Below, piece after piece: positions 25,301 through 64,000 of a DNA stretch of 64,000 bases. The translations under genes were made by a program, and so were the position numbers. Location: positions 23,582,015 to 23,646,014 of the forward strand of contig OZ316893.1 in assembly GCA_973895155.1 (NCBI GenBank). Direction: 5' to 3'. The DNA is from Marsupella aquatica. Lineage: Eukaryota; Plantae; Marchantiophyta. Under the pieces are notes generated by a model. That model was not told where the DNA came from and did no database searches. It saw nothing but the letters and a program-made list of their open reading frames with translations. How positions within the stretch are numbered: position 1 is the stretch's first letter; every line of letters starts with the position of its first letter.

Positions 25301-26984
25301 AGATGACCCATTGCAATATGCCCGGTGTGGCATGACTTGTTTGTCTGCATTGTCACAACTGCCTTATTGGGCTGAGATGCCACTTAACCATTTATTTGAC
25401 CCTATGCACATTGAGGGAAATGTTGGGAGGTCCTTGATTCGCCACCTATATGGAGAGAAAGACAACAACTGGAGAGAGAGTTGTGAAGAGATGGGGATGC
25501 ATGGCCCTCATGGTTTTTGGCCATCTATGGATCCCGATAATGCCCCCCTTACTATTCATCCTCCTTGGGTTTTGACACGAGGTGAGCGGACCGAGTTTCG
25601 CAAACGCATAGGGTCTATGCGATTTCCTACAGGGTATGGTGCCAATCTTCGCAAGGCATTTGGTGGACTTGACTCTCCAAAATGGCCAGCTTTCTTGAAG
25701 ACCCATGATTATCATCGCTTATTGCAACATGTTATTCCAATTGCTATTATTGGATTGGGTAGTGAGGATCTTCGTGATGCCCTTTGGTCGTTGGGTAAGT
25801 TGTTGAGATGGGTGTGTCAAAAGGAGGTGAACGAGGATGAGGTTGCAGCAATGGAGGTGTTTGGAGTGGAGGTTGTGTGCAAACTTGAAAGGGCCCTTCC
25901 TCCTTCATTTTTTGATGGTCAGGTTCATTTTCTACTACATCTAGTGCGTGAGGTTGGTATTGCAGGCCCTGTACATTGTCGTTGGATGTACTGGGTAGAG
26001 CGGTACATGGGAGTGATGAAGTCCTATGTTTCAAATCGCGCAAGGGTGGAAGGTAGCATTGCAGAGCGTCATCTTGGAGCAGAGAGCATGTTTTATTGTA
26101 CAAACATTATTGCTACACTTGATTCAAATGCTCCAAGCGGGTGGATAGATGAGGCATCAAGAGAAGCAGACTATGAGGATGACCGTTTGACAGGTGCAAA
26201 GGGAGAACGGCTTCTTGACCCTAGTGAGCGCACTAAACTCACTGCATTCATGTTGTATAACTCTCCAGAGATTGTTGGGGAGTGGACCACATTTTATGAG
26301 GAGGATAAGCACAATAGTCGACGACCACGCTTATTTCCCAAATTCCACATGTACATGAAGGGGAAGTTGTTAGAAGTGGATGCCTTGGTGGCTGTTGGGG
26401 AGAGTGTATCACACTTCCCAATGGTGACTGATAAGTTGCGCACCTTGGTTCATGGACCTCTACTTACAGTTACAACCAGGACTGCCATGTGGTCCAAGGG
26501 GAGACACTTTCGTGTGGAATGACTTGATGACAAGAGGGCAGCTACACAAGATTGTGGGGTGATGGGTTGGTTCACCTAGGATTCTGTAAGTAGCAGATCT
26601 GACACAAATCCCATCCGTTCTACTATAGCTCACTATGGAAAGATAGAGGAGATCCTTGTTGTAAAATACCATGCGCATACAACATTGGAAGAGGTGGTGC
26701 TGAAGTGCAAATGGTTTCGGATGAATCTTGTTGGCCACAATCGAACATGTGAAGAGGATGCTTGCGGCTTCACACGACTGAAGACAGGGGCTGTCATCAG
26801 CTCAAATTGGAGGGCCTCAGATCCTTTTGCATTTCCTCATAATCTTGAGCAGGCATTCTATCTCCCTTATCCAGATGATCCTGAGTGGTCCATTGTAATG
26901 CCTTACATTCCACGATCCCGATCCATAGTCCAAGAACAGCCAAATGTAGTTGTTGTGGAAGATTTGGAAAATGAGAACAACTAG
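22304..26984 (+). pseudogene. CACTA transposase (TnpD-like: Zn-binding N-terminus, Transposase_21, DUF4218, DUF4216); 1119 codons with 3 premature stops
   Basis: Exons 22304-22534, 23717-24890 and 25033-26984 join in frame. Motifs CWCLRC..EH..YG, IHACVNDCVLF, ADGISPF, WTIHDLPG, DPMHIEGN, KTHDYH, WMYWVERYM. Stops at 22391, 26520 and 26577. Confidence 0.93.
22645..23607 (+). CDS. SET-domain (lysine methyltransferase-like) exon inside the transposase first intron
   Basis: Open 320-codon frame after acceptor AATAG; SET motifs GLGLFALEDI, YIG, IDG, NIAGYINS, PNV and AIRTIRAGDELFCDY. Confidence 0.88.
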   Translation: MRCRARPPLVSSQLWHDAFLAGARQLLASSVEDPEQSCTPAHVQADVVHEPIVVELGHGRDDAPPPTRVLRTRPRSHRRRQQHVVLDTDPSHEHFRRSVMPPPGEEYIEVEGRLGLSYVTGKAISVFKDFDPESFAIPRGLAIDIPVHIWGRQWIVKASTLGGEVGLGLFALEDIEVPPKPWCRGYDGEHLFPYIGPVYTSKSWNILLRQHPAWGVYALQMDSDPDEVLRRPWHCRMIDGDPVRSDNIAGYINSTHGRGSGLQPNVEWAQIFGPPTPPYYVTHMDDHVMTVAIRTIRAGDELFCDYEWNAPTMGIRSGHT

Positions 26985-42459: not shown

Positions 42460-43620
42460 TTTTAGACTGAAGTCCTTCAGCAAGGGTTGGAATCCTCATT
42501 GGAAGACTACCAGCAAAGCTTAAGGACTAAAGTCCATCAGGGAGGAGTACTACAATCATTTGGTCAAAGCGCTTCACTCACTGACAAAGGACTAGTCTAT
42601 AGACGTAACACAACCCATGACTATAGTCCTTTACAAAGGATTAAAGTCCTTATCGAAGGACTACATAGTCCTCGGATGAGGACTAAAGACAGTCCTCGAC
42701 AAAGGAGTAAAGTACTTCAATAAGGACTACAATCCTTGAATAAAGACTATAGTCCTTTACAAAGGAGTCAAGTCCTTAAGTAAGTACTATAGTCCTTTAC
42801 AAAGGAGTAAACACTTGAGTAAGGACTATAGTCCTTTACAAAGGACTACAGTTCTTGAAAGAATAAGGACTATAGTCGTAAGTTACGAAAGCCCGTACCA
42901 AGGAGTAAAGTCCAAGGACTATTAGTAGTCCTGTTAAAAGGAGTAAAGTCCTTGGGGAAGGACTATAGTCCTTTACAAAGTAGTAAAGTCCTTTTGTAAG
43001 GACTATTAATAGTCCTTCACAAAGGAGTGAAGTCCTTGAGAAAGGACTATAGTCCTTTACAAAGTAGTAAAGTCCTTGAGTAAGGACTACAGTCCTTTAC
43101 GAAGTAGTAAAGTCCTTAGGAAGGACTATTAATAGTCCTTCACAAAGGAGTAAAGTCCTTGAGCAAGGACTATAGTTCTTTACAAAGTAGTAAAGTCCTT
43201 GAGTAAGGACTATTAATAGTCCTTCACAAAGGAGTTAAGTCCTTTACAAAGTAGTAAAGTCCTTCAGAAAGTCCTTTAAAAAGTAGTAAAGTCCTTTGAT
43301 AAGGACTATATAGTCCTGGGCAAAGGAGTATAGTCCTTTTATAAGGACTATATAGTCCTTGACGCTTAGTGAAGCCCTTGGCTAAGGAGTATAGTTTTTA
43401 TCCAAGGAGTAAAGTCCTTTGACTAAGGACTTCACTGCTATCCATACTCCTGAGTCAAGGACTATATAGTCCTTAGTGATTAACTAGTTAGTACTTTGCC
43501 AAGGACTCAACTCGTTTCTCATGCCAGACTTCACTTGACAAGGATTCAACAGTGCTTCCTGAAGGCCTAGATAGTCAGTCCTGAAGGAATTTTCCTGGAA
43601 CAGAGTCCTTCCTGCTAGGC
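42460..43620. repeat. Intronic array of ~40-bp units built on the palindrome AAGGACTATAGTCCTT
   Basis: Repeated AAGGACTATAGTCCTTTACAAAG(G/T)AGTAAAGTCCTT within the transposase intron at about 42361-43797. Confidence 0.92.
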
Positions 43621-44590: not shown

Positions 44591-45879
44591 CCCTGGGCCC
44601 TCATCGTTACTAATGCAGGGAGGACGTGCAAACAACGCAAGGGTATTTTTAATGTAATGCAAACTAATTTTTATAATATTTTTTAAAGTAGGCAACATCC
44701 ATGTATATGCATTCATCACAATATTAGTAATAAGGCTCTTATCAAATACATGTCACATTAATCTTATGCAAGGGTACCTAAAATGCCAAGGACACGTGTC
44801 ACTATATGGTTGGCACACATGTCATCACTTCATTGGCACACATGTCCATATAGTAAATCAGACATTTACTTATTTATCCTCTTAAGGCAAGTTTGGTTTC
44901 ATGGGCTTGCATGGTAGACTTGTTTACCCGCATGTGTTAAGTTGGGAGTTAAGTAAATGTTGGGCCAGGATTTTGGGGCCCAACTCGTTTGGGGTTCTGG
45001 GATTGATGGGGACCCATGAATCAATCCCACATAGACAAACAAGATTACTTTTGAATTCCCTCGAATCAAATGGCCAGGTATGAGGCCAGGTGTGTTTGTG
45101 TGTGGGGTGGTGTACTCCCTTGATGATTGGGTTGGGGGGGTACCCGGTGCTCACAGTTGTTTGATTGCAGAGATGGCAGGAAAATTACCCACCATGTCTA
45201 AGTAACAATTTCAGCCAAAGGAGATTTGATGGTATTACTCTCCACAATTTTCAGTAGTTATTTTTTGTATTATTAGTACTTTGTGTCTAGAATATATATG
45301 ATTCATGTGTGGTTTGATGTGTCAAGTTGCATGAAGAAGTTGCCAAAAACTCTACTTATCATTTGGTGTTAATGGTTGATGTCATACCATTCTTAGTCAA
45401 GATAGAATAATTTAGCAATTGGAGTTGACATAAGTAATATATATGCAATTATTCCTCCAAGGATATAGCATAGCATAATAATGCCTTTGTACTAGTTCAG
45501 TTTATCTCTATGAGGTCTACAAGTTGCCTGAGTTATAGTCATATACTCTAGGAAGAACTATAAATCTTTAGTACTAATTTTGTTATGATCTATATAAAAT
45601 ATGTACCGTGAACATCAGCGTAACATAATATTCCCCTATGCAAAATAAAATCTTTTATGTTTCAGTATGATATTTACAATTTTAAAAATTCAAGGGTTTT
45701 TTTAATTCCTTGAAAAACTCTGTTATAATTTACAAAAGGATAAATTTTTATAGGAAAAAATAATGTTTTTACATTAACAAGGGATTTTTTTTTGTGAACA
45801 AAAATATTAAGAAGGGGTACACGGGGGGTGTCTGTTCTCAGGGGGGTTCACTTAATATAGTAAGAGTGAGGGCCCAGGG
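44591..45879 (-). mobile_element. Non-autonomous DNA transposon, 1289 bp, copy 2 (inverted relative to copy 1)
   Basis: Same 13-bp TIR; 8-bp TSD ATTCGAAT (44583-44590, 45880-45887); interrupts the Sola2-like ORF. Confidence 0.95.
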
Positions 45880-48399: not shown

Positions 48400-50925
48400 A
48401 TAGTCTTATCGTTGTCCTGCTGCACTAAAATGACAATGGGAGGAAACGAGAGTGGCACTGACAAGTAAACGAACAGTAAGAGTGTCACTGCCTAACTGAC
48501 TCAAGCACCGAAGAGAACCTTAGCTAAAACTCATTTAGCTACTCTGATGCATTGAACCTCTGCTGCCGATTCTCTCCCAGTATGAACTCCAGATTTTGTT
48601 CCATGTTATCTTTTTTCCCGGTTGCACAGCCATACATGATGTCCCTGATCATCACTTGTTTTTTGTTCTGCACAAAACATGCAACATGCCTACAGTTAGA
48701 GACCACATATATGGAATTCGTAATTCATCATTACTAGTGAGTGCGTGCAGGAATTGTTAGGCAAAGCACGCAAACTGAAATACCTCAATCATACCCCAAT
48801 AATATCCTAATAATATCCCAATAATACCCCATACACAGAGTGACTGTATTCACCATGCAGTCCACACAAGCACTTCTAATCTTACTTGCAGCTCCAACAT
48901 CTTCAACTCAATTGAATCTTCAGCGATAAACCTGATGACTTTCACCGGCCTTGTTTGCCCAATACGATGTGACCGATCGACGGCCTGGTCCTCTACCGTG
49001 GGATTCCACCACCCGTCTACCATAAGAACATGTGTAGCCTCAGTGATGTTGAGTCCTGTGTTCGTTGCCATCAAGGACAAGAGGATAATGCTGATCTGCA
49101 TGAAATGAGTAGAAACAGTTTAATTAGAATATAAAGAGTTTACCCTTTGAACAATACAGACACCGATCTGCACGGATAATGACGGTTGTACCTCTGGGGT
49201 CGTCTTGAAATCATTCAAGGCTTGTTCTCTGACATTGGAATTCATTCCTCCATCAATCCTTGTGAACTTTAGACCAGCCTTCAGAATGTGTGGCTCAAGC
49301 ATGTCGAGACACAAAGTCCATTGTGAGAAAACAAGAGCCTTCTGCCTGGGCACAAAGCTTTCGCTGCTACCCTATCCTGTAGTGTCCAACGGAATCGACT
49401 TCAGGTATTCCAAGACTGCATCAAATTTTGGAGAAGGTGGGTGTCGGACATCATATTCTCTTTGCGCCTTCCCTTTTGACTCCGCACCACCATTCACTAG
49501 CCTCAAATCAGCTGGCCTGTATAGGACCTGGGCTGTCACGTATTTTGAACATTTTGCCGATTTGCAGGTTCCAGCTTCCCGGTCTATTGCACAAATGCCA
49601 CAGTATACATGGCCACAGCCAGAAATCTGAAATGGACTTCCAATCAAGCCCCCTGCACAATCCAACCGTTAAAGTGAGTGCGTGCAAAAATTGTTAGGCA
49701 AAGCACGTTAACTGAAATACCTCAATCATACCCCATACACAGAGTGACTGTACTCACCTTGCAGTCCACGCAAGCACTTCCAATCTTCAATTGCTGAAAC
49801 TCTGACACGAGTCGGCCTCGTTGAGGCTCACTAAGGGGCGTTCTTTGCACTTTGTTCCCGATCTCCTCTTCGCGAATTTTACATAAGGAAGGAAGTTTCG
49901 GGTGCACTGCAAATTGTCGCAACTGGAGCAGAACACTCAACACATTCGATAAGGCACCTCTTTCGGCGTCGCGGAATTCCTACAACATTACAGGCACATT
50001 AATTGCCACCAAAAAGACACCTTCAAGGGATCAAATTGAACTCTCATACGTCTTCAACATTGGGGATTATTAAGAGCCTTATGTACCTTGTATAAGTCCT
50101 TACTCTTTTCCTCCTGATCAAAATAAGCCTTTTGTTCTTGCTGTGTTCTCCATTCAACAATTTGCACCTCGATCGTCTTAGGGGGCAGTGGGAGTATGCC
50201 TGCATGTAAGCACAGTGGTAGGGTAAATGCACAATTGATAAAGAAATCAGGCATGGGATTAAACAAAGTGAACTCTACCATGATGCATGTGCGCTTACTT
50301 TTGTCTCTCCTGAGCGCAATCACAACCAAGTGTTTCGAGAGGATGCCATTCGTTATCTTTGGCCTTGTCTTCAACAGCTTCTTTAACTGCGAGAATTCCT
50401 TCCACTCTCCTAGAGGATAATACCTCAGAAAACTGAAGTAAGGAAACAGATCAGAAGCCTCGTTCTGTATGGGTGTACCGCTTAGGCACCACCTCCTCTC
50501 TGCCTTGAGACAACACGAGGCCTTGAAATTTTGACTAGTTTTATTTTTCATGACATGACACTCATCCAGGACTACTCTAAGCCAATTAATCTTAAACAAT
50601 GGACCTGCAAGTCTAGGTTTTTTACAGGTCTCTTCATACTCCCTTTTGGCACGCTGGACGTCTTTGGAGCAATGGGTGACTCCCCTATCATGATTGAGTA
50701 CGTAGTGACAACCACGTCATGGGCATGAAATAAAGTCGATGTCTTTATTCCTCTTGTTGTGGTAGAGGAGGACCTTCACTTTTGCTATCTTGGAGGTCCT
50801 TGCAGCTATTTCTTGGCCCCATTGAATCACCACGCTGGCTGGACAAACAACTAGAGTTGGCCCACACTTATGAGGGTGATTCACGAGAAATAGCGCTATG
50901 ACATGCATGGTTTTTCCCATTCCCT
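48400..50925 (-). pseudogene. RAD5/RAD16-like SNF2 ATPase with internal RING finger
   Basis: [93 protein letters not shown]. Frameshift near 50725, in-frame TAG at 49372; 3' end approximate. Confidence 0.9.
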
Positions 50926-52333
50926 ACAAAAATCCAAGCCAAGAAAACAGTCAGGCACCCACTCACTTGCAGACGGGGTATTTACAAACGACAGGAACCA
51001 GGAAACAGTAACAGCAAACAGTTACTGTTACCAGGAGAAATGGAAAAAAGAACATGGGATTGAGCTCCATTATTTGGTCAAGAAGTAAAAAAAAACCCAT
51101 CAATAAACCCCATTTTCAGTCGTTTTCAATACCACCATCCAATTGTCAAGGAAAGTAGGGGCCATTAGAATAAAGGTGTTGCCGAAAACCGGTGATGGCC
51201 AGCGCACAACGGTAGTATGTCGGCAGGGAAGGGCAAAATTTAGGTATTCATAAAATAATGAAAAAGATGGAGATTCTATGTAACGTCAATCGAGAAGAGA
51301 ACAGTAAACTTAACGACCAATAGAAAAAGGCGTTGCCAAAACATGCGGATATTAGCAGCGCCCAGCGCTAGTATGCTGGAAGAGATTGTCCATCACATCA
51401 ATCGAGAAGTGAACACAGGAAACTCAATTTGAAGCATGTCAAGTCGTAGGCTTCGGCCTTAACTCAGACTTCAGCTTAGACGGGCACATCCCTCGTAAAT
51501 TTGAGGGTTTGGGCAGGAAGGGAAGCACGTAATGCACCTTATTCTCGTAAACTAGCGCTAAGTGCGCATACTGCTAAATACGGACACCTCCTAGGTATGG
51601 TTTGTGTTCCACCGCCGGAATGTACCTTAGTCGATAGCAAGATCGACCCCTGCTTAAGGGCTTCTAAGCCTTCGTGCTGTCCGCCTTCGATCCGGATTCG
51701 ATGATACAGGTCCTCAACCCGTGCTCGCAACCACTTACCCGCAGGCTACACCCTGTGCACGTCTCGGGTAGTGCGTTCGGCCTGGCGCTGCCACCCATAT
51801 ACGAGAAACCCACACACATATGCGCACACATGCATACAATCTTGATTTACACGAAGGAAAATGATGGGAAAGGATTTTACTACAAAGGGAACATATGCGT
51901 ACACTTAGTTGACCCGATAGCCCTGGAATGAACAGGTTCAAGGCCGAGGGTGCACACTACAATGGAGCCCGGCTCCGCACTCGCCCGGCGAGCTTAGTCC
52001 TACCCCCTCCCCTTGGTACTCTGTCATTCCCAGAGGTCGGGACTCCCTGCATATCCCGCGGATGTCCGACTCTGAAACTAAAAACCCCCCCTGCCTCTAC
52101 CGAGGGGTGCACTAAATACTAAGAGCCGAGGGACGGGGTGTCATCTTGCCAAAGATTTGCTGACTAAGGTCCTAACTAAGCTGACAGTCAGGCCGGAAAA
52201 CGGCTGTGTCTTATTAGAAGATCCTAATCTACGTAGGCTGGACAGCAGGGCAGCGCTGCTGTACCTAAGGCAGGTGCCTGTCCCAAGAGCCTGACTAAGC
52301 CAATCCTAATCCTAATCTATTCCTACTCCGCCG

Positions 52334-54987
52334 CTAATGCCTGGCACGCTTGCCAGAGCCGCCCGAATGGGAACGGCCATCCCGCTGCCTTCGAAGCCTG
52401 TCATTGTCCGCTTTGAGGAGCTGGACCTCGTCCAGCAGAGATTCATTCTCTCGCCTCGCCACGTCCGTCTCCTCTGCTACCTCCTGACATGCCTCCTCCA
52501 GCTACTGGGCGTCGCTCGTCAGTTTACCCGCAAGCTGGTCCTGCTTCTCGGCCTCGGTTTGGAGCCGCGCTATCTCGGCCTGCAGCGTGGCTATCTCCGC
52601 CGTTTCCCGCTGGGCTCGCTCCTCGGCCTCCTCCAGGTCTTTCTGCCAGGTGACAGCTTGTTTCTTCAAACTATCAATCTGGTTCCGGAGTCGTGTAATC
52701 TCGGCCTCATTCCCAGCTTTGGCCTGTTCGGCTAGGGCGGTAAGAGCATGCGCCTTTGCTAACAACTCATCGGCGGCTGCAACCTTGGGTCGTAGTTGCA
52801 GAAGCTCAGCCTCTTGAGCCGCCACTTCGTTCTTTAGGTACACGGACTCCACCCGGTATCGCTCTATCCTCTGAAGGGTCTCCGACTGGGCCCGACCTGC
52901 CTTTACGGCAGCAACCAACTCCTGATTGAAGAAACAGGCTACCTTCCGGGCCATGAACTCCCCGGTATCCCGGGCAATTTGATGAGAGAAATCTCCCAGA
53001 AGCCCGTTCAGAAACGTACCCTATACGAAGAGTTCCGGGTGGTCCAAGTTGTGCCTATCCGGATTTGGGCACGGGCAGACGTCAACACGCGCAGGGGCCG
53101 GGGCAGTGACGTCCAGCCCTGGGGACATAACGTTGGAAGGGGCTGGAGTGTCCTCCTGTAGCAATGTCCGGTTCTACGGAATTGCCACCGGTGGGTCCTT
53201 GGGAGACCCGGGTTCGGGTAAGACCTCTGCCGTACCAACTTCTGTACTTAGCCCGGCTAGTTGGGTCGCATCAATGGTTGCGACAACCGACCCCTCCAGC
53301 GCCTCCTCGGTTACGATTACAGCTATTTGTGGAGGTGGGGTGGGTGAAGCTGGCGTATCCGCTGGACTTCGGGCCTCGGGTTGGGGCCGTCTCTCCAATG
53401 CCGGAAAACCCACCTAGCTGGGACCAGCTTTGTAACGTTGATGCGGGGAAGGGTTTGTCGATCAAACCGGGCGTACCACTCAAGAATGATTTTGATGTGG
53501 CTAGCAAAATACACCTTCCCGCCAATGTACAGCGTCTTCCTTCGCCGCTCCATCTCTTCATGGAATTTTTTAGCGAAGTACGACGCCCATTTCCTAGGTC
53601 GATAGTTCTCGACCTGGATAACCTGGGCGGCGGAGATCTCCCCCCGGGGTTCCATCATGTGGAGAGCGTACCTTTGGAACTCCAGCCGCTCAGCTATCTC
53701 GGGCATGAGGCAGGTCCTCATCACGAACCCGTTGTCTACTGCTCCCTCTAAGGGAAAACTTGAAGATTGGTACTTGGCCCCCTTGCCCCCGGGAGCCCGT
53801 GATTCGACTCGATGGTCACCTTCGGGTAACCCGAAGATCATCTTGAGTCGTTCTTCTGTGAGGGACATATTCCTTCCCCGCAGCCCAGTCTGTTGACGTA
53901 CGTCGTCATAATTCTTGACGAATTCTGTCATGTCCTCCCCGTAGTACCTGCAAGTGTTCCAGGGGAGAGAGGTGAGGTGCTCAAATCCCTGAGTCTTCAG
54001 GTACATCGCATGCTTGGGATGGAGGATGTTGCTGTGAACGTTTTCCCCCATGCGGTGCATCGTCACCTTGGCTACGGCTACCGTGGCCAACGGTAACCCG
54101 GATGCAGTGGCGGATTCCTTCCTCTTCTTTCCCCGTGACTGACTCGGGGAAGGTGATACTTCCCCATCCTCCTGATCGGGCCTGGGGAGTGCCACTGCCG
54201 TTGGTAACGGGCCCGGGGCGGCCACGGTCACCATGTTGTCTGCTGGGGCCGCTCCTGGGGTCAGAGCAGGGGGTGGGGACGATATAGTGTCGGCCCCCCG
54301 AGCGCTTGTTCCTCTGGGCCGCCTGGTCAAGGGTGGGGTAGCCTCGTCGTCATCACTAAGATCCACAGCGTTGATGACGGAGCGTACCTGTGCTGGCTGG
54401 GTGATAGGTGGTGGGGTTTGGCTAGGCTGCGGCTGAGGCTGAAGCTGAAGCTGAGCCTGAGGTTGAGGCTGGGGTTGCATGGGCACGGGTACGGGTACGG
54501 GCACGGCTGAGTTGGTCATGTTGGTTGATGGCCGAGTTCCCATGAAGCTCTGCAGGTGCTGGTAGAAGTTCTTCGAAGCGAGTGCGGACGCCCTTGTCGA
54601 ACGGTTGGTACTGGACTCGCCGTTAATGACAGCCCAAGCCTGGGCAGGGATGTGGTCGAAGTGATGTCGCTGCAGGTCAATTATACCCGGGATATGGAAG
54701 ACCTCGTCCGGAAGCCGAAGCAATGCTTCCTAGAAACCGATATATTTGTCTCCGTTGAAGAAGTACCCAGATACCTCTGCTGGTCGGTAAAGCTCACTCT
54801 GAGACGGGTAGTCAAAGTTAAGGATGTAGTGGTGTCGTCCTGCTAGGCGGATGGCTCTCTCGTATTCGCGTTCGATTTCGTATCGACGCGGGTTGGCGTG
54901 TTTCAATGAATCGGCCAAGTGCCTTCCGGTAGATAGGAACTGCATCCAGAATCGAATGGCCGAGCTGGAGAGGATCGTGTGCGACAT
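52334..54987 (-). pseudogene. ~880-codon gene homologous to 31585-33807
   Basis: ORF pieces linked by in-frame TAG stops and one frameshift near 53415; LHMMEPRGEIS..KWASYF..IGGKVYFASHIKIILEWY matches LHMIEPRSEIS..NWAQFF..IGGKTYLGSHIAIILAWY. Confidence 0.85.
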
Positions 54988-55085
54988 TCAGAGGAGATAG
55001 TAGTGGCGACCTAGAGAGAACGAGAGAGCTGGGGTCGAAGCTGGCGCGCGGACTGATGGACTGGTGCACTACAAAGGGTTGGCTC

Positions 55086-55095
55086 CCCTTTTATA
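55086..55095 (-). promoter_or_regulatory. TATA box (TATAAAAGGG) upstream of the element-internal gene
   Basis: CCCTTTTATA on the plus strand, about 100 bp before the ATG at 54987 and about 360 bp inside the element end. Confidence 0.55.
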
Positions 55096-56009
55096 CTTTG
55101 AGGGCTTGTCGATCCCCGACGTCTCCTCGACGCCCATAGGCTGAACCGCTCACGCTTGTGGTGTACCGACCACTCCGCCGGTCTGAGTCAGCATGCGTCA
55201 GTGGCCGCTTCCTTAAGTTCGTTATACGGACCCGAGGGAGGGGCCCTTCCACGCTCGTAACCCGGGTGTGCGAATAGTGACCCGCCGCCAGCCCGAACCT
55301 GAAGTCCCCCTTATTGCCTAATGATGTCCTACCCCTAATGATTACCTAAATACTGTCGTTATGCTAATAATAGCGGCCTAAGACATACCTAACGCGCGTG
55401 CCGAGCGCAGTTAGACTGAATCACTCATTAACCGCCGTACCGGCGGCGTCACAAAGCATTTCCAACAAACAGAGGCAATGGCAGACGTTGAATATTTTCA
55501 GCGATGGCCGCTACATTAAATGTCGGACCTCAAGAAATCAACGTCTAAACACGGAACACAATGATCATAGGCAGCGCTCGGCGCTAGCTCAAATCTAGGA
55601 ATCAATGAATGACCATGAAAGAACAAGAGAGTCGATCCAAAAGTGCATTCCTTAATTCCAAAATTGGTCAAAACATATAACTGGTATTACACCATCCGCA
55701 GATCATCTTCAAATCAACCCACGGCAAAACATGAACATAAGCAGCGCTCGGCGCTAGCTAAAATCTAGCTATCTTAAATGTAGCCCGCCCTGGCCCGTAT
55801 GTGCTTTATCTTGACCTGAGCCGCACATAACAGGGCCGCTGATCCAAAATGGGCCAAAGATGGAGCCGGAAATACATGAACTTAGAATCACCCATAGAAG
55901 AAATCCCATGGTCCAAGACGAACAAAAGCAGCGCTCGGCACTAGCTTAAATGGAAAGCCTATGGCCACTGAAGCTTGTGTCACTGAAACCATCTCCGTCG
56001 TGATTAACT

Positions 56010-57223
56010 TTAGCTCTGCGATTGGCAGTCGTCGTCGATGCCCGCCCTGGCACGTCTGTGGTTTTGCTTGAAACCTAGACCCCTGAGACGCACATAAGAA
56101 GACGAGGGGCACCGAAACTCCGAACTCTGATTCCCGGGGTCTGGAACATTTGTATCTAGGAAGTCAACACGTTCCAGTCGCTCTTGTACTCGTAGCTCAA
56201 TAGGCTGAATACCATCAGCAGGAACGAGAGAATGAAATGAAAAACGATCAACAACTACGAGCGGAGTGTCCCGGTCATTAATCCAAGGTAAGTTCCTCTC
56301 CCCGGGACTAATCGCCTCATCATAAGGAAGAGAAAAACAATTCTGGAAGGTCGAGGTCTCGCTGGATGTGTCACCATGAATGGACTCGAAGGAGCTAAAG
56401 TGACTCTCGTCCGGTCGAACTCTGGAAGGAGCAAAGAAGGCAAGCATCTCCTCCAAAGACATGATCTCCTTCTTCTCCATCTGGTGGGCACTGGTAAACG
56501 CAATCGAAGCTAATGACAAGACCGGTGGTGTTGAAAAGACTCAACTTCGAGAGAGGTTGTGTTCGAAATACCTTGCAATAGCGACCCAATGGAGAGTTTA
56601 GGTTCGGAGATCCTAAAAAACGTATCACAGAAAGGTTCAACGCAAAAAAGACCGTTGAGAAAGAGACGACTGTTCCGAGAGCGACAAAATATGCGGGGCC
56701 AAGGAACGGACGGAGGATTCAAAATTCGCAAGTAGAAAAATAGACGTTTGGGGAGCGCCCGGCGCTAGTAAGGGAAATAATGAATTTAATCCATTTTATT
56801 ATCAATGTAATGTAAACAAATCATATGTAATATGATAGATAAATGGATTAAGATAACAGCGCCCGGTGCTGGTAAGATGTAAGCCAAAAAAACTCTTTAA
56901 GAATCGGACGATTCCGATTCGGAGCTCTGTGACCTCTCGGTAGAGACTGCCTCATCATCTACATACTTGCTCCTACAAACGTCGTCTACATAAGGATTTC
57001 GGACAAATTTCCTATCAACTCCTCTTCGTAGCCGAAGACCTTTGTTTTCCCAACAAAGAGTCCTCTGATTGTCTTCCATTCTTGCAGCATTCTCAGCGTA
57101 AGAGGGTAACACAAATGGTTTCTCCGGAGTGACAATTTCAAAACGAGCTACCTTTCTTCTGAGTTTGAAGCGTCTTCTCGTATTCCATTCGGACCTGGGT
57201 GAGAATAGAAGTTCGTCAACCAA
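56010..57223 (-). other. Two short ORFs or exons of unknown function (56010-56519, 56897-57223)
   Basis: Open frames of 169 and 108 aa, co-oriented with neighbouring genes; no recognisable motif. Confidence 0.3.
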
Positions 57224-59565
57224 TTGTATGAATGGATATCACAAAGCCATGAAGGAACTGGAAAGGAGAAAGAAGCTTACGAGTTTCAGAACATTACTCG
57301 GAAGAGTCATCACTGTCACTCTGGCCAGCGGATTGTTCCTGACCCTTCCCCTCAGGTGTGCCATCTTCATCTTCGTCTGCTGTACCACCACTTGACTCAT
57401 CGTCAGAGTCAAAATTGAGTACAGAACGGAGCTTGTCCCTCTTTTTCTTTTCGGGTGGCTGAATTGGGGGTGGCAAAGTTTCAACTTCCTTTGGAGAAAG
57501 TAGATCTAAGAACACCTTGGAACCAGTCTCAACAAAATCTTTCCTATTCTCCACTCCAATTACAAACCTCCCAGAATAGTCTCCAGCTACAAAAGAGCTG
57601 CCCGATCCCACTGTCCAATCCATGAAAATATCCCTCGGACGAGTGATGAGCTCAATCACAGATTGCATGAATCCAACAAATAATCGGGCATTTCCAGCAA
57701 ATTCCATCTCAGGTGTTGGATCGACTTTGAGAGAGGGAAGTCCAATTAAATTTGTTATTGAGGGATCTTCGGTGGCAGACAGAGGTCTAAACCTCGAGTC
57801 TTTTGGCACCTTCCCTTTTTCAGACAATTGAGAGAAGACGTCCAGCCTCAGCGTGAAGATCTGTAATATAACCCAAGCAAGGTATGTCAATGGATGCATT
57901 TGTAGACAATTTTTTAATGGAAAACCAGATGTCACGATGAGAAATTTACCTGTCGATCAGTCTTTGGCGCGTACATTGGAACTGACATGACAACATTGTG
58001 TGACGAGATGCAATGAAACTTCTTTGAATCTTGACAAGCCGATATAACCTGAGACATCGGATCGTATTCCCCGTTATGTAAAATGGCCAGCATTCCGTCA
58101 TCAGATAAAAATGGGTCCATTCCACCAAAGAAAGATGTGGCCAAAGTGTGGTCAGGGACATTCCATTTAGGAACTTTTCTGTCTAGCAGAGATGGTTTAA
58201 GTCCTGTTGGAAGGTAAATGAACCCGCGTGGACCCCAAACGATCTCTCCTTTCCACCACGCACAACGCCCTTCTCTCGAAAGCCAGACTTCATGAGATCC
58301 TTTCCCCACTTCTCTACACCATTCACCCAGTCAGGCTTCTCCCCTTTGTTAAACGTTGAGTCGTAGAATTTTGAGATGCTAGATTCAACAAGGCAATGCC
58401 TTGAAAGTCTACTCTTGAAGTCCCCGACTTCGCGTTGAAGACCTACAGCAGCAGCACTTTCTCGAGAAGAAGATCCACCTTCAATGGTCCTTTTTCTCTT
58501 CTTCCTTGTACTAGTAGCATCCACTGGAGCGATCGCCTTCCCTTTGTCGGTGGGAGTAATTGGATCGGATGGTGCTCCGGTATTGGCTTTTGAAGCCTCT
58601 GGGGTGGCATCTATCTTTGTATCTCCGCTCCCCACGGCGTCCGACTTTCTTCCTGTTCAAATGGATGTCGACGTGATATCCGTCAATAAAGAGACAACGA
58701 CAATGCTAACGCCCAGCGCTGGCCAAACTATCATAAGACTTGGCCTTAAATATACATCTTTCCGAGTAATAAATACCAATTCTGTTTCTAAAACAATGAC
58801 TCTCATAACAGCGCCAGGCGCTAACAATGTAACAGATTTTGACATAAGCAGCGTCGGGCGCTAACCAAATGATATTGACAGATATTGACTGCCATAGCAG
58901 CGCCGGGTGCTAACCAAAGGAAACAAATTATACTTAACACGATTTCGGACCGAACGAGAACTATTTCCTCTAAACGAGAAGTGTATTTTCATTTTCCGCC
59001 GAATCTCGCGAAATCGACAGTTTTTTTCATCAAAAACACGTTTTTGGGGAAATAATGTAATTCGTATCGGAATTCGGATTGAAACAGCAAATTTAATAAT
59101 GATCAAAACCAATGAAATTCATGCTAACAAACATTCATATTATCAAGGAACAATTAGATCCGAAAAACTTTCTCCTCAACCTCATATTCACGCTCTCCGA
59201 AGATATATGAAAGGTCTTATCTATAAATCCATATCCACATTTCAAGCCAAGTGCGATAACTGTATCGGACTCCGGATTTGAGCCACGAAAGCTCCGACCC
59301 AATCTCAGTTTTCTCAGTTTTTGGATATTTACCAGAAATATTTTACATCACAGTCGATAAGAATTACTGCACGGTTCGTCAAACTTACCTTGTAGTTACC
59401 TCCGCAATTGACCAGTTACCTCCGCAAGTGACCATAGTCAACATGCCATTCTTTCAACTGCAATGCGCAGTCCGATAAAATTATCACGAAAACTACGGGC
59501 GACAAAAATACTAGTCGACAATACTAAGATCCTTCGGTTCATCGGTTAAATTTCAAAATTCCTAT

Positions 59566-59947
59566 CCATATGAAGAAAACTCTTCGCAATACCAACATCA
59601 GATAAATTTATCGCTTCAATTTCAAATTGCAACTTCCATATGAAGGAACCACTTTTGCAATACCAACATCAGATAAATTTATCGCTTCAATTTCAAATTG
59701 CAACTTCCATATGAAGGAACCCCTTTTCCAATACCAACATCAGATAAATTTATCGCTTCAATTTCAAATTGCAACTTCCATATGAAGGAACCACTTTCGC
59801 AATACCAACATCAGATAAATTTATCGCTTCAATTTCAAAATTGCAACTTCCATATGAAGGAACCACTTTTGCAATACCAACATCAGATAAATTTATCGCT
59901 TCAATTTCAAATTGCAACTTCCATATGAAGGAACCACTTTTGCAATA
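59566..59947. repeat. Tandem repeat, 71-bp unit, about 5.4 copies
   Basis: CCATATGAAG anchor at 59566, 59636, 59707, 59778, 59850 and 59921; full units contain GATAAATTTATC. Confidence 0.95.
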
Positions 59948-60531
59948 ATCACCCTATTCATTAAAAGTGTATTTCATTTTGTTCACTTTTAGGCCTCGAA
60001 ATGTTCACTTTTTGGTCTTTAAATGTACACTTTTTAAACCCAAAAGATACAATATGGTATAATACTCGACACTTAAATGATCAATTGTAAATTTGAGGGG
60101 GCAAAAATGATCTTGACTAGAAGGAGCCTCATCTTAGTTCATTTACAAAGGATGAACATGGTGGTACATCTCATGGCCATCACCTTTATTTCTTGCCCAA
60201 TTGTACACTTTTTGAAGGCCAAATGTACATTTTTTATTGCCTAAATGTTCATAAATTGAATAATAATTCACTTTTAATGAATAGATTGATAATACCAACA
60301 TCAGATAAATACACTCTGAACCACACAACCCGAAGTCAGGGGAGGCAGAGTCAATTACATTCAAAGTGTTTCTTTACAAGCTCTTCTCAAGCAAACCTTA
60401 GAGCACCCAAAATCGACTAGAGGAATGAGGAGTGCGATAAATTTATCGGATGTTCGCAGCAATGCCTCATCCACTCAGACTCGTCCATGCCATGCAAGAA
60501 TTGTCCGCTTCCCGCTTTCTCCAAGATTTAT

Positions 60532-61023
60532 TCAAACTCTACGAAACTGATCTAACTGCTCATACGAAAAGCACCCAAGCATATCTATGGGAGGGAGGAA
60601 ATGAGTTTCCTCTTGGAAGACCCTAGCAATATGTATGTTTGAGAGAAGGTCGGCATTAGGAATGCTTGCGAGCATTTTGTTTATGTCATTGATCTCACTG
60701 AGTGCATATTTCAATAGCGCCCAAAATCGTGTACCAACAACAAGATGGTTCCATTTCTTTGAGGTGGCTCCAAGACAAATGATTGTTCTCATTCGAGTCA
60801 GTCGTTCTTCTGGTAGAAGTTTTAGGTCAAGGCCAAGGTGTTCATCTTGTGTGCAAGACAAGGCTAGGAGGGGCCAAATGTGAGATTCAACGAGTTGATC
60901 GGGAAGTCCATTCAACAAACTTCCACATTCCACACCGGGCACTTTTCCTTGAATATATTTCCTACGCTCGTGGGCTAAAACGGATCCCATCTTTGGAACG
61001 ATTAGATTCTCCAATGCAGCCAT
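60532..61023 (-). CDS. Small F-box-like protein
   Basis: 163-aa ATG-initiated ORF with LLNGLPDQLVESHIWPLL...CLGATSKKWNHLV. Confidence 0.5.
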   Translation of the reverse strand: MAALENLIVPKMGSVLAHERRKYIQGKVPGVECGSLLNGLPDQLVESHIWPLLALSCTQDEHLGLDLKLLPEERLTRMRTIICLGATSKKWNHLVVGTRFWALLKYALSEINDINKMLASIPNADLLSNIHIARVFQEETHFLPPIDMLGCFSYEQLDQFRRV

Positions 61024-63401
61024 GAAGCAGAGTTACCAAAACCACCAATAAAAATACCTTCAATCACCAGGTGTAACCGAACACATCCACAATACCAACC
61101 CTGCACGACAGTTTAACGATTAGGACTCGTGACATATTATATTCGCTGCGCAAGGGTAGGACTTGTTTATTTAAATATGTCCTTACAAGATGCGCCTCAA
61201 TGAAAAGGTCGAAACACTCATCATGAAAGGTTCACCCAAGGGTCTTCGTTCCAAATCTTACAATAGAAGTGAGCCTGTTTGTGGTACTTGTTGTCAAGAT
61301 GACGACAACAATAGTTACAAGAAAACTCCAAAGAATGTAAACACGCCGTTAACATCAACCTCAAACAAATTGGAACTCCTGCATCATTCATTCCGCAGAA
61401 TTCAATGCGGAGAGGATTCTGCCTATCTCCGGGATCAGTACCACCCATCCACAATGCTCCTATACCGATGGGGAGAACTTTGAGTCGCACGAGTCTCTTG
61501 TACAACCGGCGTGCACGTTTGACACGATTTTCAAGGAAGACAGCCATTTGTCACAATACCTGTTGTCCACGGAGTGCAATCGACCTTCCGTTGTGCCTCC
61601 TAAACCCGGCAACACTGCGACATCAGAGATGAAGATGAGTCTCCAAACAAAACAAAGGAAAATTATTCTCACAGGAGGATGCGATAAGTTTATCGCACTC
61701 CGCATTCGAATTGAAAATATGACTTCCTCAGACACCTAAGCCCTGAATTCAATCTTTCACAAAAATGACAACTCCGATAAATTTATTGGATTCTCAATTA
61801 CTCCTCTTTCCATGAAAGGAATGAAGACTCCAATAAATTTATCGGAATGAAGGTAACACCTCTCTAAACACTGGATCAAATGATTGCAACAGAGGAATTC
61901 AGAATGCGATAAATTTATCGCAGTCTGCTCGGATCTGGACATTTTACACGAAATGACTAGTTAGTCTTACATGGAGAACTTGAACAGGAATGGCTATTCC
62001 GATAAATTTATCGGGTTTTCGGTAGAAAGAGTTGAATCGCTTGGGAGGAATGTAAGACTTGATGGGAGTTTGGTATTCGCTCTCAGTCAGGAGATATTTG
62101 CTCTGGCGAAAGCAAACGTTTTATGGGCAGCCCGCTCCTCTTTATGGAGACGCTCTAAACCATGGTTAATTTCCCCTTAACCATGGTTAAGTTTCCCCTT
62201 TATTTGGGTTAGTGCGTGGTCGTTCCTGGATTACGCGGTTCGGACCAAGTTACTCGCAGTTCGGACTTTTTCACTGACAGAATGTAAAACCCGATGCCCG
62301 TATCGCTCCCTGCATTCCCGCGACGATGCAATGGAGGAAAGTGGCATTTCAGAGAGTTTTTGCCAGTTTTATCGGTCATTGCATTGCCTTAGAAAAAAAA
62401 TGGGATCGGGCTAAACGAGAACTCCAACACACTTCTCGGTCGGTCCGAAATCGTGTTACTTACGTTTTTTCCCAGATCTTGTTGATTCACTTGGGGCCGT
62501 AGTATCTGCTTTTGCTTTGGCGCGAGGCTTCCTGCTTCGGTCAACATGAACAATTGTTGTCTCGCATATTGTTTGCAATTCTGTTGTGGATTGATCCACA
62601 TCATCCAAAAGCCCCTGCTTCATGTCAGAAACAACATTGACTGGAATCTGGGACTTAGACAGCTTATGGAAAGCATCCTTTTCTCTGTGATCAAAGGGAG
62701 AGTCCCATCTATCTGTATCCAGGTACCATGGACAATGGGTTCTCTCCCATTCACTCAAAGGTCTTGCTGGGAAAATTCCCTTGGTAGGATACATAGAATA
62801 CAATTCAACTAAAGAATTACTCTCCGGTATGACAGTCCACTTGAGGAAGGCTACGGGATACGCCCAGAAGTAATAAGGATTGGTAGCCTCCATGTGGATG
62901 TAAAAATGGTAGAGATACCGTTTTGCTCGCTTCTGGTTCTTCAAAGAATAATCCTCTTTGTCAGGATACTTCGAGGGCCACATTGTATTAAAAAACTTAC
63001 CCTTGACAGAGTCACCGTATTTCCTAAAATCATTCGTAACTATTTCAATGAGAGATTCGAATGATTCACATGCCCAATCTTGTAAGCGATTCACGGGAAT
63101 GGTTTGTTGGACCTCTCGTAGAGCACATTGCAACATCCCCACCGCAATCCCTTCTACATTATTCCATGTAATCCAAGTGTGACACCACTGTTTGACTGGA
63201 TCATCATTGACGCTATTTGGATGGAAGAATTGTCTCCGGAGCTCCGGATTGCAATGTGCTACAAGCAAAGTACTTCGTAGCTTGGCGTCAAGAGCCGAAA
63301 CAGCTGTAAAAAGCCTGGCCCGGTCCATGGTACACAACACGGTATCTGGTTTCTTCTCTCGCTTATTCCTCTCCGTGATAGCATACATCTATGCGCACGT
63401 A

Positions 63402-64000
63402 CACTAGTAGAAATACCCCCTATTTTTTACCATAAAATACGACTAACTATGACTAAAACCGGTCATGTATGACTGAAAATCACTGACGTCGTTCTTGCAA
63501 CTAGTAGTCATAAAAGTGGTGACTTGGATCAACTTAGTCATATTATTGACTAGTGTCATTAGTCATTTTAGTGACTAGAGGGTCAAGTATTTGGAACCAT
63601 ACATCAGTCAAACATAAGTGTTTAGAATGACTTAGTTCGAGTCATATGGGGTTTTCCGTGAGTGATTGATAACACTCAATTGACCGCACTAGTTTCCGTA
63701 GACAATGTTGTCATTCATAGTTGAGACTGAGTCATTAATGTCACAAAAGCACCAATCCAACTAACAATGGCACGATAATAACTCAAAATATGAGCAATCC
63801 ATAAAAAAAAGAGTATTACCCAACATCATGTACTCCAAATTGTGGTCATATATTGAAACAATCCTTCACATTTTGAGTCTCAAATTGTATTTGGTACCTA
63901 ACACTCTACAAATTTCTCAGGCCACATCACAAATGATTCCACAGCATCCACAAGATGGATGTGTGGCGGATCATCTCCCTTGTTTGGAAAGGGTAGAAGA
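63402..64000. mobile_element. End of a CACTA element that runs off the window
   Basis: CACTAGTAGAAA terminus, identical to the inverted end at 34778-34789, followed by GACT/AGTC subterminal repeats; truncates the upstream ORF. Confidence 0.85.

What the first reader, a model, noticed from the sequence alone, without database searches (positions are those of the whole stretch)
57294..63401. Intron-containing plant gene with a bacterial-type N4/N6 amino-methyltransferase-like domain in a transposon nest
Seen: a motif-IV-like segment precedes a motif X/I-like segment (I...T.P.D...D...GSG....A....GR...G.E), the beta-class order. It joins by phase-matched splicing across a 3.8-kb intron to an upstream domain of over 310 aa ending LSEWERTHCPWY. 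The DPPY position reads YLPT. Known: beta-class enzymes make 4mC or 6mA; horizontally acquired N4C methyltransferases are reported in Marchantia and bdelloid rotifers. Inference: a mobile, possibly catalytically altered methyltransferase-fold protein.
Basis: partly seen in the sequence, partly recalled or inferred. Interest (0 to 1): 0.8.

Follow-up and report, generated by a model that had tools for sequence, protein, structure and literature searches.

The report
Dead plant pseudo-methyltransferase gene copy
This is a broken copy of a multi-copy plant gene whose family has the predicted fold of bacterial DNA amino-methyltransferases but lacks their catalytic motif in every relative checked, so it is likely a non-methylating, probably transposon-borne protein and not a new 4mC/6mA writer.

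Summary
Three minus-strand exons encode a permuted (beta-class) N4/N6 methyltransferase-like domain behind an unassigned domain of about 300 aa.

The 3.8-kb intron is a 285-nt intron plus a 3.5-kb transposon with a 6-bp target duplication. The empty site appears in 3 of 4 runs, which ties exon A to exon B in DNA.

This copy is dead. It has a 1-nt frameshift just before motif IV, an in-frame TAG, and a CACTA-type end cutting exon A.

YLPT is not decay. None of 26 relatives has D/N at motif-IV position 1 or an aromatic at position 4 (consensus [YFAC]-L-P-[TN]-G-L-R), against 9 of 9 phage enzymes with D-x-P-Y. The SAM-binding loop persists. Five relatives are named, all from the liverwort Calypogeia fissa.

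A CG-rich palindrome recurs ten times in the intron and 3' flank.

Best reading: a catalytically dead methyltransferase-fold accessory gene of a large DNA transposon, not an MpDN4MT1-like enzyme. No transposase link, transcript or activity is shown.

The parts
62464..63388 (-). Exon A: unassigned domain of about 250 aa plus a low-complexity linker; its 5' part is cut off
   Evidence: Open frame. No Pfam or PHROG family. No true relatives found. Single-sequence model uninformative, pLDDT 34. Multi-copy in DNA runs.
63389..63391 (-). In-frame TAG directly upstream of the exon A ORF
   Evidence: Translation in frame 63388.
63402..64000 (+). End of a CACTA-type element (starts CACTAG) inserted into exon A; runs off the window
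   Evidence: Sequence. In run X2, 9 contigs continue with other letters behind 63401; in X5, 7 contigs carry unlike letters before 63402 (table 7).
58653..62463 (-). Intron 1, GT..AG, phase 1, 3811 nt; 285 nt without the insertion
   Evidence: P0001 and P0006 begin to align at 58650 and 58653, at the acceptor.
58937..62456 (.). Unclassified 3.5-kb DNA transposon inside intron 1, with inverted ends, a 6-bp duplication (58931-58936 and 62457-62462), internal CGATAAATTTATCG palindromes and a weak F-box-like ORF
   Evidence: Inverted repeat I6. Empty-site joint 58930->62457 with 6 shared letters in X1, X2 and X3 but not X5. F-box-like E=0.063.
57950..58652 (-). Exon B: linker, then the N-terminal half of the methyltransferase fold; 1-nt frameshift at 58222-58225
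   Evidence: 27 relatives; tblastn across both frames.
58205..58216 (-). Motif IV position, reading YLPT
   Evidence: hhalign register against phage D-x-P-Y; column counts; coordinates.
57861..57949 (-). Intron 2, GT..AG, phase 0, 89 nt; position likely conserved in the family
   Evidence: Nine unspliced relatives diverge at the same point, while Calypogeia models P0005, P0010 and P0011 run on into exon C sequence.
57294..57860 (-). Exon C: SAM-binding half (DWTVGSGS 57620-57597, GVE from 57557) and acidic tail
   Evidence: 42% identity over 119 aa to P0005.
58708..58911 (.). Four CG-rich imperfect palindromes (AGCGC-NN-GGCGCT) in the residual intron
55573..56870 (.). Five more copies of the palindrome in the 3' flank, around two short same-strand ORFs of no family (56897-57238 and 56010-56540)
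51357..51369 (.). Tenth palindrome, beyond a GC-rich block (about 51.5-55.4 kb) and upstream of a broken SNF2-RING helicase gene on the same strand
   Evidence: That it belongs to the same unit is inferred.

Best explanation
The locus is a broken copy of a three-exon-plus, multi-copy plant gene whose product has the predicted fold of a permuted beta-class DNA amino-methyltransferase but lacks the catalytic motif throughout its family, so intact copies likely make a non-methylating pseudo-enzyme that probably rides on a large DNA transposon. SHOWN: the exon structure in DNA, the four lesions of this copy, the family, the family-wide [YFAC]-L-P-[TN] in place of D/S-P-P-Y, and a retained glycine loop and GxE. 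INFERRED: the fold came from a phage or bacterial DLPY-type enzyme, gained introns, lost the residues that activate and stack the target base, and was kept under selection for a binding role. The mechanism I consider most likely is a transposon accessory protein that binds DNA, perhaps as a dimer on the element's own CG-rich palindromes, and helps the element escape or shape silencing; this step is untested. Later a CACTA-type element and a 3.5-kb element inserted into this copy and point lesions accumulated.
For: FOLD: the model of relative P0005 (residues about 120-290 at pLDDT 70-90, C-terminal half under 50) hits CcrM at E=1e-5 and M1.HpyAVI. VIA ranks M.MboIIA first (Z 9.8, rmsd 4.8, 168 aligned); its first 9 rows are all permuted amino-methyltransferases. 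hhalign to 9 phage enzymes gives E=9e-12.

CATALYTIC LOSS: of 26 relatives covering motif IV, position 1 is Y8 F7 A5 C3 S2 R1, position 3 is P in 26, and position 4 is T16 N5 and five others, none aromatic. All 9 phage enzymes have D-[PLI]-P-Y. In N4CMT, SPPY to APPA abolishes 4mC (PMC8885841, passage).

SELECTION ON THE FAMILY: P54, F81 and G92 (P0010 numbering) are invariant in 21 aligned relatives that are 26-74% identical to P0010. 7 of the 11 displayed exon differences to other copies are synonymous, against 22% expected (p=0.004).

ONE GENE: empty-site joint in 3 of 4 runs, plus two further joints across the insert (58917->62466 in X1 and X2; 58870->62457 in X3).

MOBILE CONTEXT: contigs at 80-100% identity cover the gene and its 3' flank (up to 17 contigs at one place). 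Five Calypogeia paralogues lie on contigs of five different lengths. Ten palindrome sites against a chance mean of 0.19; 11 in 7.7 kb against 2 in the other 56 kb at two mismatches. Red-algal Plavaka transposons carry a PF01555 accessory gene and inverted-repeat arrays.
Against: No transposase, terminal repeats or target duplication were found for a unit holding the gene; the window's Tnp2 transposase (23.7-27.0 kb) belongs to a separate CACTA-type element. None of the relatives aligns to exon A, and the Calypogeia models start without it. No full-length fused protein was found (weak searches). The empty-site joints have short sides (27-45 nt) at 80% likeness, come from two studies, and X1 may be the source sample. 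The fold is of a 40% identical relative and its SAM half is poorly modelled. The synonymous count rests on 11 exon rows among the 40 of 1054 rows displayed. The palindrome pattern was chosen after seeing the repeats, and it may equally be bound by a transposase or another element protein. Nothing shows DNA binding, SAM binding or expression.
Confidence: 0.6

Rival explanations
1. Intact family members are active methyltransferases with changed chemistry or substrate (RNA, protein, or a base flipped into a remodelled pocket). This copy is still dead.
For: The SAM loop D-x-T-x-G-x-G and GxE are kept and resemble phage enzymes with DFTMGSG or DNTMGSG. LP at positions 2-3 also occurs in phage DLPY enzymes. 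Iyer et al. note eukaryotic clades with unusual strand-4 motifs (PMC4738411, passages).
Against: Position 1 varies freely among Y, F, A, C, S and R, unlike a catalytic residue, and position 4 is never aromatic. The N-terminal GD reads mostly SS (S in 10 of 16 at the D position) and HPTxKP is not kept; these two motif labels are recalled.
Confidence: 0.15
2. The family is a host gene family, not transposon cargo: an inactive partner or scaffold in the manner of METTL14, spread by ordinary duplication, and this copy decayed inside a transposon nest.
For: No transposase is linked. An intron position appears conserved across relatives as far apart as 25-45% identity. Inactive partners are known in the permuted clade (PMC4738411, passage).
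Against: Many copies at 80-100% identity include the non-coding 3' flank. Dispersed paralogues also occur in Calypogeia. The palindrome is confined to this unit.
Confidence: 0.15
3. Exon A belongs to a different upstream gene of the same unit, and the methyltransferase-like gene starts at or near exon B.
For: No relative matches exon A and the Calypogeia models lack it. No fused protein was found.
Against: The GTAAGT donor and AG acceptor match in phase and are only 285 nt apart at the empty site. Similarity to P0001 and P0006 starts at the acceptor.
Confidence: 0.1

Closest known systems
Beta-class DNA amino-methyltransferases, PF01555 (M.MboIIA, CcrM, M1.HpyAVI, M.PvuII; phage DLPY-type enzymes)
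   Same: Fold and permuted order. Glycine loop and GxE. A W-x-x-W-D segment after motif IV aligns with the phage KWD segment.
   Different: No D/N/S-x-P-Y/W/F, no HPTxKP. Introns, an extra N-terminal domain, acidic tail, many copies; the Pfam score is below the cut-off.
Marchantia MpDN4MT1a/b and bdelloid N4CMT (eukaryotic 4mC writers)
   Same: Bacterial-type permuted amino-methyltransferase fold in a eukaryote; N4CMT 8s9n matches at Z 7.4.
   Different: They carry (T)SPPY and are active (passages). This family lacks the motif. No MpDN4MT1 sequence was at hand, so kinship was not tested.
PAG2 of Bostrychia Plavaka (EnSpm/CACTA) transposons, also on Zisupton and Mutator elements of red algae
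   Same: PF01555-type accessory gene on large multi-gene DNA transposons, with inverted-repeat arrays in the element (10.1101/2025.02.11.637652, section 8 read).
   Different: PAG2 is fused to SET and sits with a ParB/2OG-oxygenase gene and a transposase; none was found in this unit. PAG2's motif IV was not seen; its sequences are in supplements that I could not see.
Inactive MTase domain of DIRS1 retrotransposons; METTL14-type pseudo-methyltransferases
   Same: Methyltransferase fold kept without catalytic residues, in the first case on a transposon (PMC4738411, passages).
   Different: DIRS1 domains are PCIF1-like and embedded in a retroelement polyprotein. METTL14 is a single-copy host gene of the MT-A70 clade.
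VANC anti-silencing proteins of VANDAL transposons (functional analogy only)
   Same: A transposon protein binding short motifs in introns and other non-coding parts of its own element (PMC5735166, passages).
   Different: No sequence or fold relation was tested or is implied, and binding is not shown here.

Membership tests
Beta-class N4/N6 DNA methyltransferase (PF01555) | Rossmann methyltransferase fold | tested here: met
   On relative P0005: Foldseek CcrM E=1e-5, VIA Z 9.8. Window exon C included in the profile.
Beta-class N4/N6 DNA methyltransferase (PF01555) | Motif IV lies N-terminal to motif I | tested here: met
   Coordinates 58216-58205 then 57620-57597 on the minus strand; alignment.
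Beta-class N4/N6 DNA methyltransferase (PF01555) | Catalytic [DNS]-P/L/I-P-[YFW] | tested here: not met
   Window reads YLPT; 0 of 26 relatives conform; 9 of 9 phage controls do.
Beta-class N4/N6 DNA methyltransferase (PF01555) | SAM-binding glycine loop and acidic residue after the next strand | tested here: met
   DWTVGSG and GVE in the window; D, W, G, G and E invariant in the 4 sequences that cover it.
Beta-class N4/N6 DNA methyltransferase (PF01555) | Pfam gathering score 26.7 | tested here: not met
   19.8 for exon C; 18.9 and 23.5 for P0005 and P0010.
Beta-class N4/N6 DNA methyltransferase (PF01555) | Methyl transfer to N4-C or N6-A | not testable with these tools
   Needs an assay.
MpDN4MT1 / N4CMT 4mC writers | SPPY motif | tested here: not met
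   S at position 1 in 2 of 26 relatives, none with SPPY.
MpDN4MT1 / N4CMT 4mC writers | Grouping with these proteins in a tree | not tested
   Their sequences were not held; the tree has family members only.
Plavaka PAG2-type transposon accessory gene | Fusion to a SET domain | tested here: inconclusive
   No SET hit in exons A-C or in P0001, P0005, P0010, P0020, P0025, but the 5' exons lie outside the window.
Plavaka PAG2-type transposon accessory gene | Lies inside an element with a transposase and defined ends | tested here: inconclusive
   None found for this unit in the window; the 5' side is cut by an insertion and the window edge.

The most novel reading that the evidence does not exclude
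Seed-free plants carry a family of giant DNA transposons that turned a phage-type DNA amino-methyltransferase into a catalytically dead reader. It binds the element's own CG-rich palindromes (AGCGC-NN-GGCGCT) in introns and spacers and, with a co-carried SNF2-RING helicase, shields the element from host silencing: a VANC-like anti-silencing system built on a methyltransferase fold.
Probability: 0.15. Interest if true: 0.8.

Novelty: new variant of a known kind. Interest (0 to 1): 0.42.

Why it matters
The finding is not evidence for wider 4mC or 6mA writing in plants. Such weak PF01555 hits could be mistaken for MpDN4MT1-like enzymes. What remains is an apparently unnamed, intron-bearing, multi-copy plant family with a conserved fold and a family-wide loss of the catalytic motif, next to a clear candidate target sequence. 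If intact members bind that palindrome, this would be a second, independent route to sequence-specific transposon anti-silencing in plants and a directly testable case of an enzyme fold reused as a DNA reader.

Tried and rejected
Word-seeded homolog searches for longer, fused forms found nothing: exon A, 544-2000 aa; exon C, 330-2000 aa; alignment A5, 794-2265 aa. These are weak negatives: one search also missed P0005, which BLAST scores at 5e-25.

From the 29 hits, two were dropped as chance: P0021 (1177-aa repeat protein) and P0023 (4634 aa, no stretch; sequence not viewed). P0030 was left out of the column counts as a cluster-mate of P0002, and P0028 starts after motif IV.

Exon A: no Pfam or PHROG family. 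Atlas hits to DUF6532/DUF6698 at 0.94 share only 139-147 features and are rejected. The AlphaFold model has pLDDT 34 and was not fold-searched. The one metagenome locus, L001, is an unrelated bacterial contig.

Metagenome and viral scans with P0009 and P0010 found no relatives. A profile of A2 found no PDB sequence at E up to 10. No RNA holder was listed. The tree of 26 family rows is mostly unresolved; the window groups with P0001 at 99/95. Phage and plasmid tblastn gives only weak SAM-region hits, best E 1e-3, so no donor can be named.

Rejected: that YLPT is decay of this copy; that the 3.8-kb intron is native; that the window's CACTA transposase belongs to this gene (separate element ending near 27775). 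Ten literature searches showed no paper on this family; most subscription papers are not in the library, and the Cell 2025 MpDN4MT1 paper was seen only as a citation.
Full report
1. What is in the sequence. On the minus strand there are three coding blocks: exon A, 63388-62464; exon B, 58652-57950; exon C, 57860-57294. The first intron has a GTAAGT donor at 62463 and an AG acceptor at 58654-53, both phase 1. The second (57949-57861, 89 nt) is phase 0 at both ends. Exon C gives PF01555 at E=8.5e-4, under the gathering score, M1.HpyAVI at E=7e-4 and CcrM weakly, and phage DNA methyltransferase families. The window is plant-like: GT-AG introns and Tnp2/DUF4218/DUF4216 CACTA genes. That the host is a seed-free plant is an inference from the only named relatives. 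No whole assembly was at hand, so copy number and far flanks were not read.

2. This copy is broken in four ways. First, exon B changes frame at 58222-58225, two codons before motif IV. P0001 aligns at 58% over 144 residues in one frame and 71% over 93 in the next, meeting at its residue 143, and several other relatives span both frames. Second, a TAG lies in frame at 63391-63389. Third, a CACTAG-starting end at 63402 interrupts exon A: in run X2, 9 contigs go on with other letters behind 63401 (table 7). Read by eye, those letters continue the frame to an acceptor-like AG, so further exons likely lie upstream. Fourth, 3526 of the 3811 bases of intron 1 are an insertion with 26-nt inverted ends and a 6-bp duplication. 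Whether other copies share the frameshift or the TAG was not read: neither is among the 12 of 64 indel rows or the 40 of 1054 substitution rows displayed.

3. Exon A and exon B. The joint 58930->62457, with six letters fitting either side, stands in X1 (2 contigs), X2 (2) and X3 (1), not in X5. Two other joints cross the insert with a few different letters. Without the insert the intron is 285 nt. This ties the exons in DNA from two studies, with short sides (27-45 nt); it is not a transcript. Against the fusion: no relative aligns to exon A, and the Calypogeia gene models begin without it. Exon A stays unassigned.

4. The family. phmmer with exon B against 1.84 billion representatives gave 29 hits; two were dropped as chance. 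Of 20 clusters looked up, five are NCBI proteins of the liverwort Calypogeia fissa on contigs of five different lengths, one is a JGI 'hypothetical protein', and 14 are unnamed. P0005 and P0010 run through exon B and exon C sequence in one chain. Nine unspliced relatives diverge at the window's intron 2 donor, so the intron position is likely shared. In DNA runs the gene and its 3' flank are covered by many contigs at 80-100% identity; depth is not a copy number, but up to 17 contigs overlap one place. Seven of the 11 displayed exon differences are synonymous against 22% expected, a small and selected sample.

5. Fold and motifs. AlphaFold on P0005 with 25 sequences models the N-terminal half well and the SAM half poorly. 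Foldseek ranks CcrM and M1.HpyAVI first. VIA ranks M.MboIIA (Z 9.8), M.BceJIV (9.4), CcrM (9.0), M1.HpyAVI (8.5) and M.PvuII (8.3). Profile alignment to nine phage enzymes puts family F/Y-L-P-N/T on phage D-x-P-Y. In 26 relatives, position 1 is Y8 F7 A5 C3 S2 R1, position 2 is L in 23, position 3 is P in 26, and position 4 is T16 N5 and never aromatic. All 9 phage controls have D-[PLI]-P-Y. The first and fourth residues hydrogen-bond the target amine and stack the base (PMC10406627 and PMC4738411, passages), and replacing both with Ala kills N4CMT (PMC8885841, passage). The SAM loop D-W-T/S-x-G-x-G and GxE are kept. The N-terminal GD and HPTxKP segments are not (these labels are recalled). So YLPT is the family state, and canonical amino-methylation is unlikely.

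6. Surroundings. An imperfect CG-rich palindrome, AGCGC-NN-GGCGCT, occurs at ten sites: four in the residual intron, five in the 3' flank and one at 51357. Chance expectation is 0.19 matches and none of 100 shuffles came near; at two mismatches there are 11 sites in 7.7 kb against 2 in the rest. The pattern was picked from repeats seen. Downstream on the same strand lie two short ORFs of no family, a GC-rich block and a frameshifted SNF2-RING-Helicase_C gene. This looks like one multi-gene unit interrupted by younger insertions, but no ends or transposase were found for it.

7. How it most likely works. Shown: anatomy, lesions, family, motif loss. Inferred: origin from a prokaryotic or phage beta-class enzyme (no donor can be named), retention for binding, carriage on a DNA transposon. 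Untested: binding to the palindrome and any effect on silencing. My odds: dead copy 0.85; not a canonical amino-methyltransferase 0.8; exon A fused 0.8; transposon cargo 0.65; palindrome reader 0.15-0.2.

8. Comparison with what is known. MpDN4MT1 has TSPPY (10.1101/2021.02.12.428880, passages) and N4CMT has SPPY; membership fails on that feature. Red-algal Plavaka, Zisupton and Mutator elements carry a PF01555+SET accessory gene and inverted-repeat arrays (10.1101/2025.02.11.637652, passages and section 8; supplements with the sequences not seen, and they may show whether PAG2 keeps motif IV). Plavaka elements are reported in streptophyte algae and moss (PMC13519894, passages). DIRS1 elements carry inactive methyltransferase domains. 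VANC binds motifs in introns and spacers of its own element (PMC5735166, passages). Passages of PMC6431247, PMC12344493 and 10.1101/2022.10.21.513199 added nothing on this family. Ten searches found no description of it in the held library. Two earlier AI notes of this scan describe dead copies of what seems the same kind of gene in other genomes; they are leads, not support, and they lower the surprise of this copy.

9. Verdict. A real feature and a new variant of a known kind: a dead copy of an apparently unnamed plant pseudo-methyltransferase family, probably transposon cargo, with a candidate target palindrome. Interest 0.42.

Noticed in passing
window 22645-23607 (+) and 23717-26984 (+), end near 27775: A CACTA-type element whose Tnp2 transposase (PF02992, DUF4218, DUF4216) is preceded by an ORF with a SET domain (E=6e-7). 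SET accessory genes are reported on other DNA transposons.
   Followed up: partly
window 58937-62456: Intron-inserted DNA transposon with a 6-bp target duplication and ACACG..CGTGT ends, eleven CGATAAATTTATCG palindromes, a 71-nt tandem array and a weak F-box-like ORF; superfamily not assigned.
   Followed up: partly
window about 48540-50923 (-): Frameshifted, intron-containing SNF2 helicase gene with a weak RING match and Helicase_C, RAD5-like by recall; it may be cargo of the same unit.
   Followed up: partly
window 10621-11916 and 44591-45879: Two 1.3-kb copies, 97.8% alike, in opposite orientation, each with CCCTGGGCCC inverted ends and its own 8-bp target duplication: a recently active non-autonomous element.
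   Followed up: partly
window about 51500-55450: GC-rich block (0.50-0.64) with a 468-aa ORF and a coiled-coil ORF of no clear family and no terminal repeats found; probably a younger insertion.
   Followed up: partly
window 56897-57238 and 56010-56540 (-): Two short ORFs of no family directly downstream of the gene; a GTAAGC donor-like site near 57280 and a CAG acceptor-like site near 57195 suggest a further intron.
   Followed up: no
window 42567-43474 and 18561-19222: Tandem arrays: a partly palindromic one at 42.6-43.5 kb and a 189-nt repeat inside a long minus-strand ORF at 18.5-19.2 kb.
   Followed up: no
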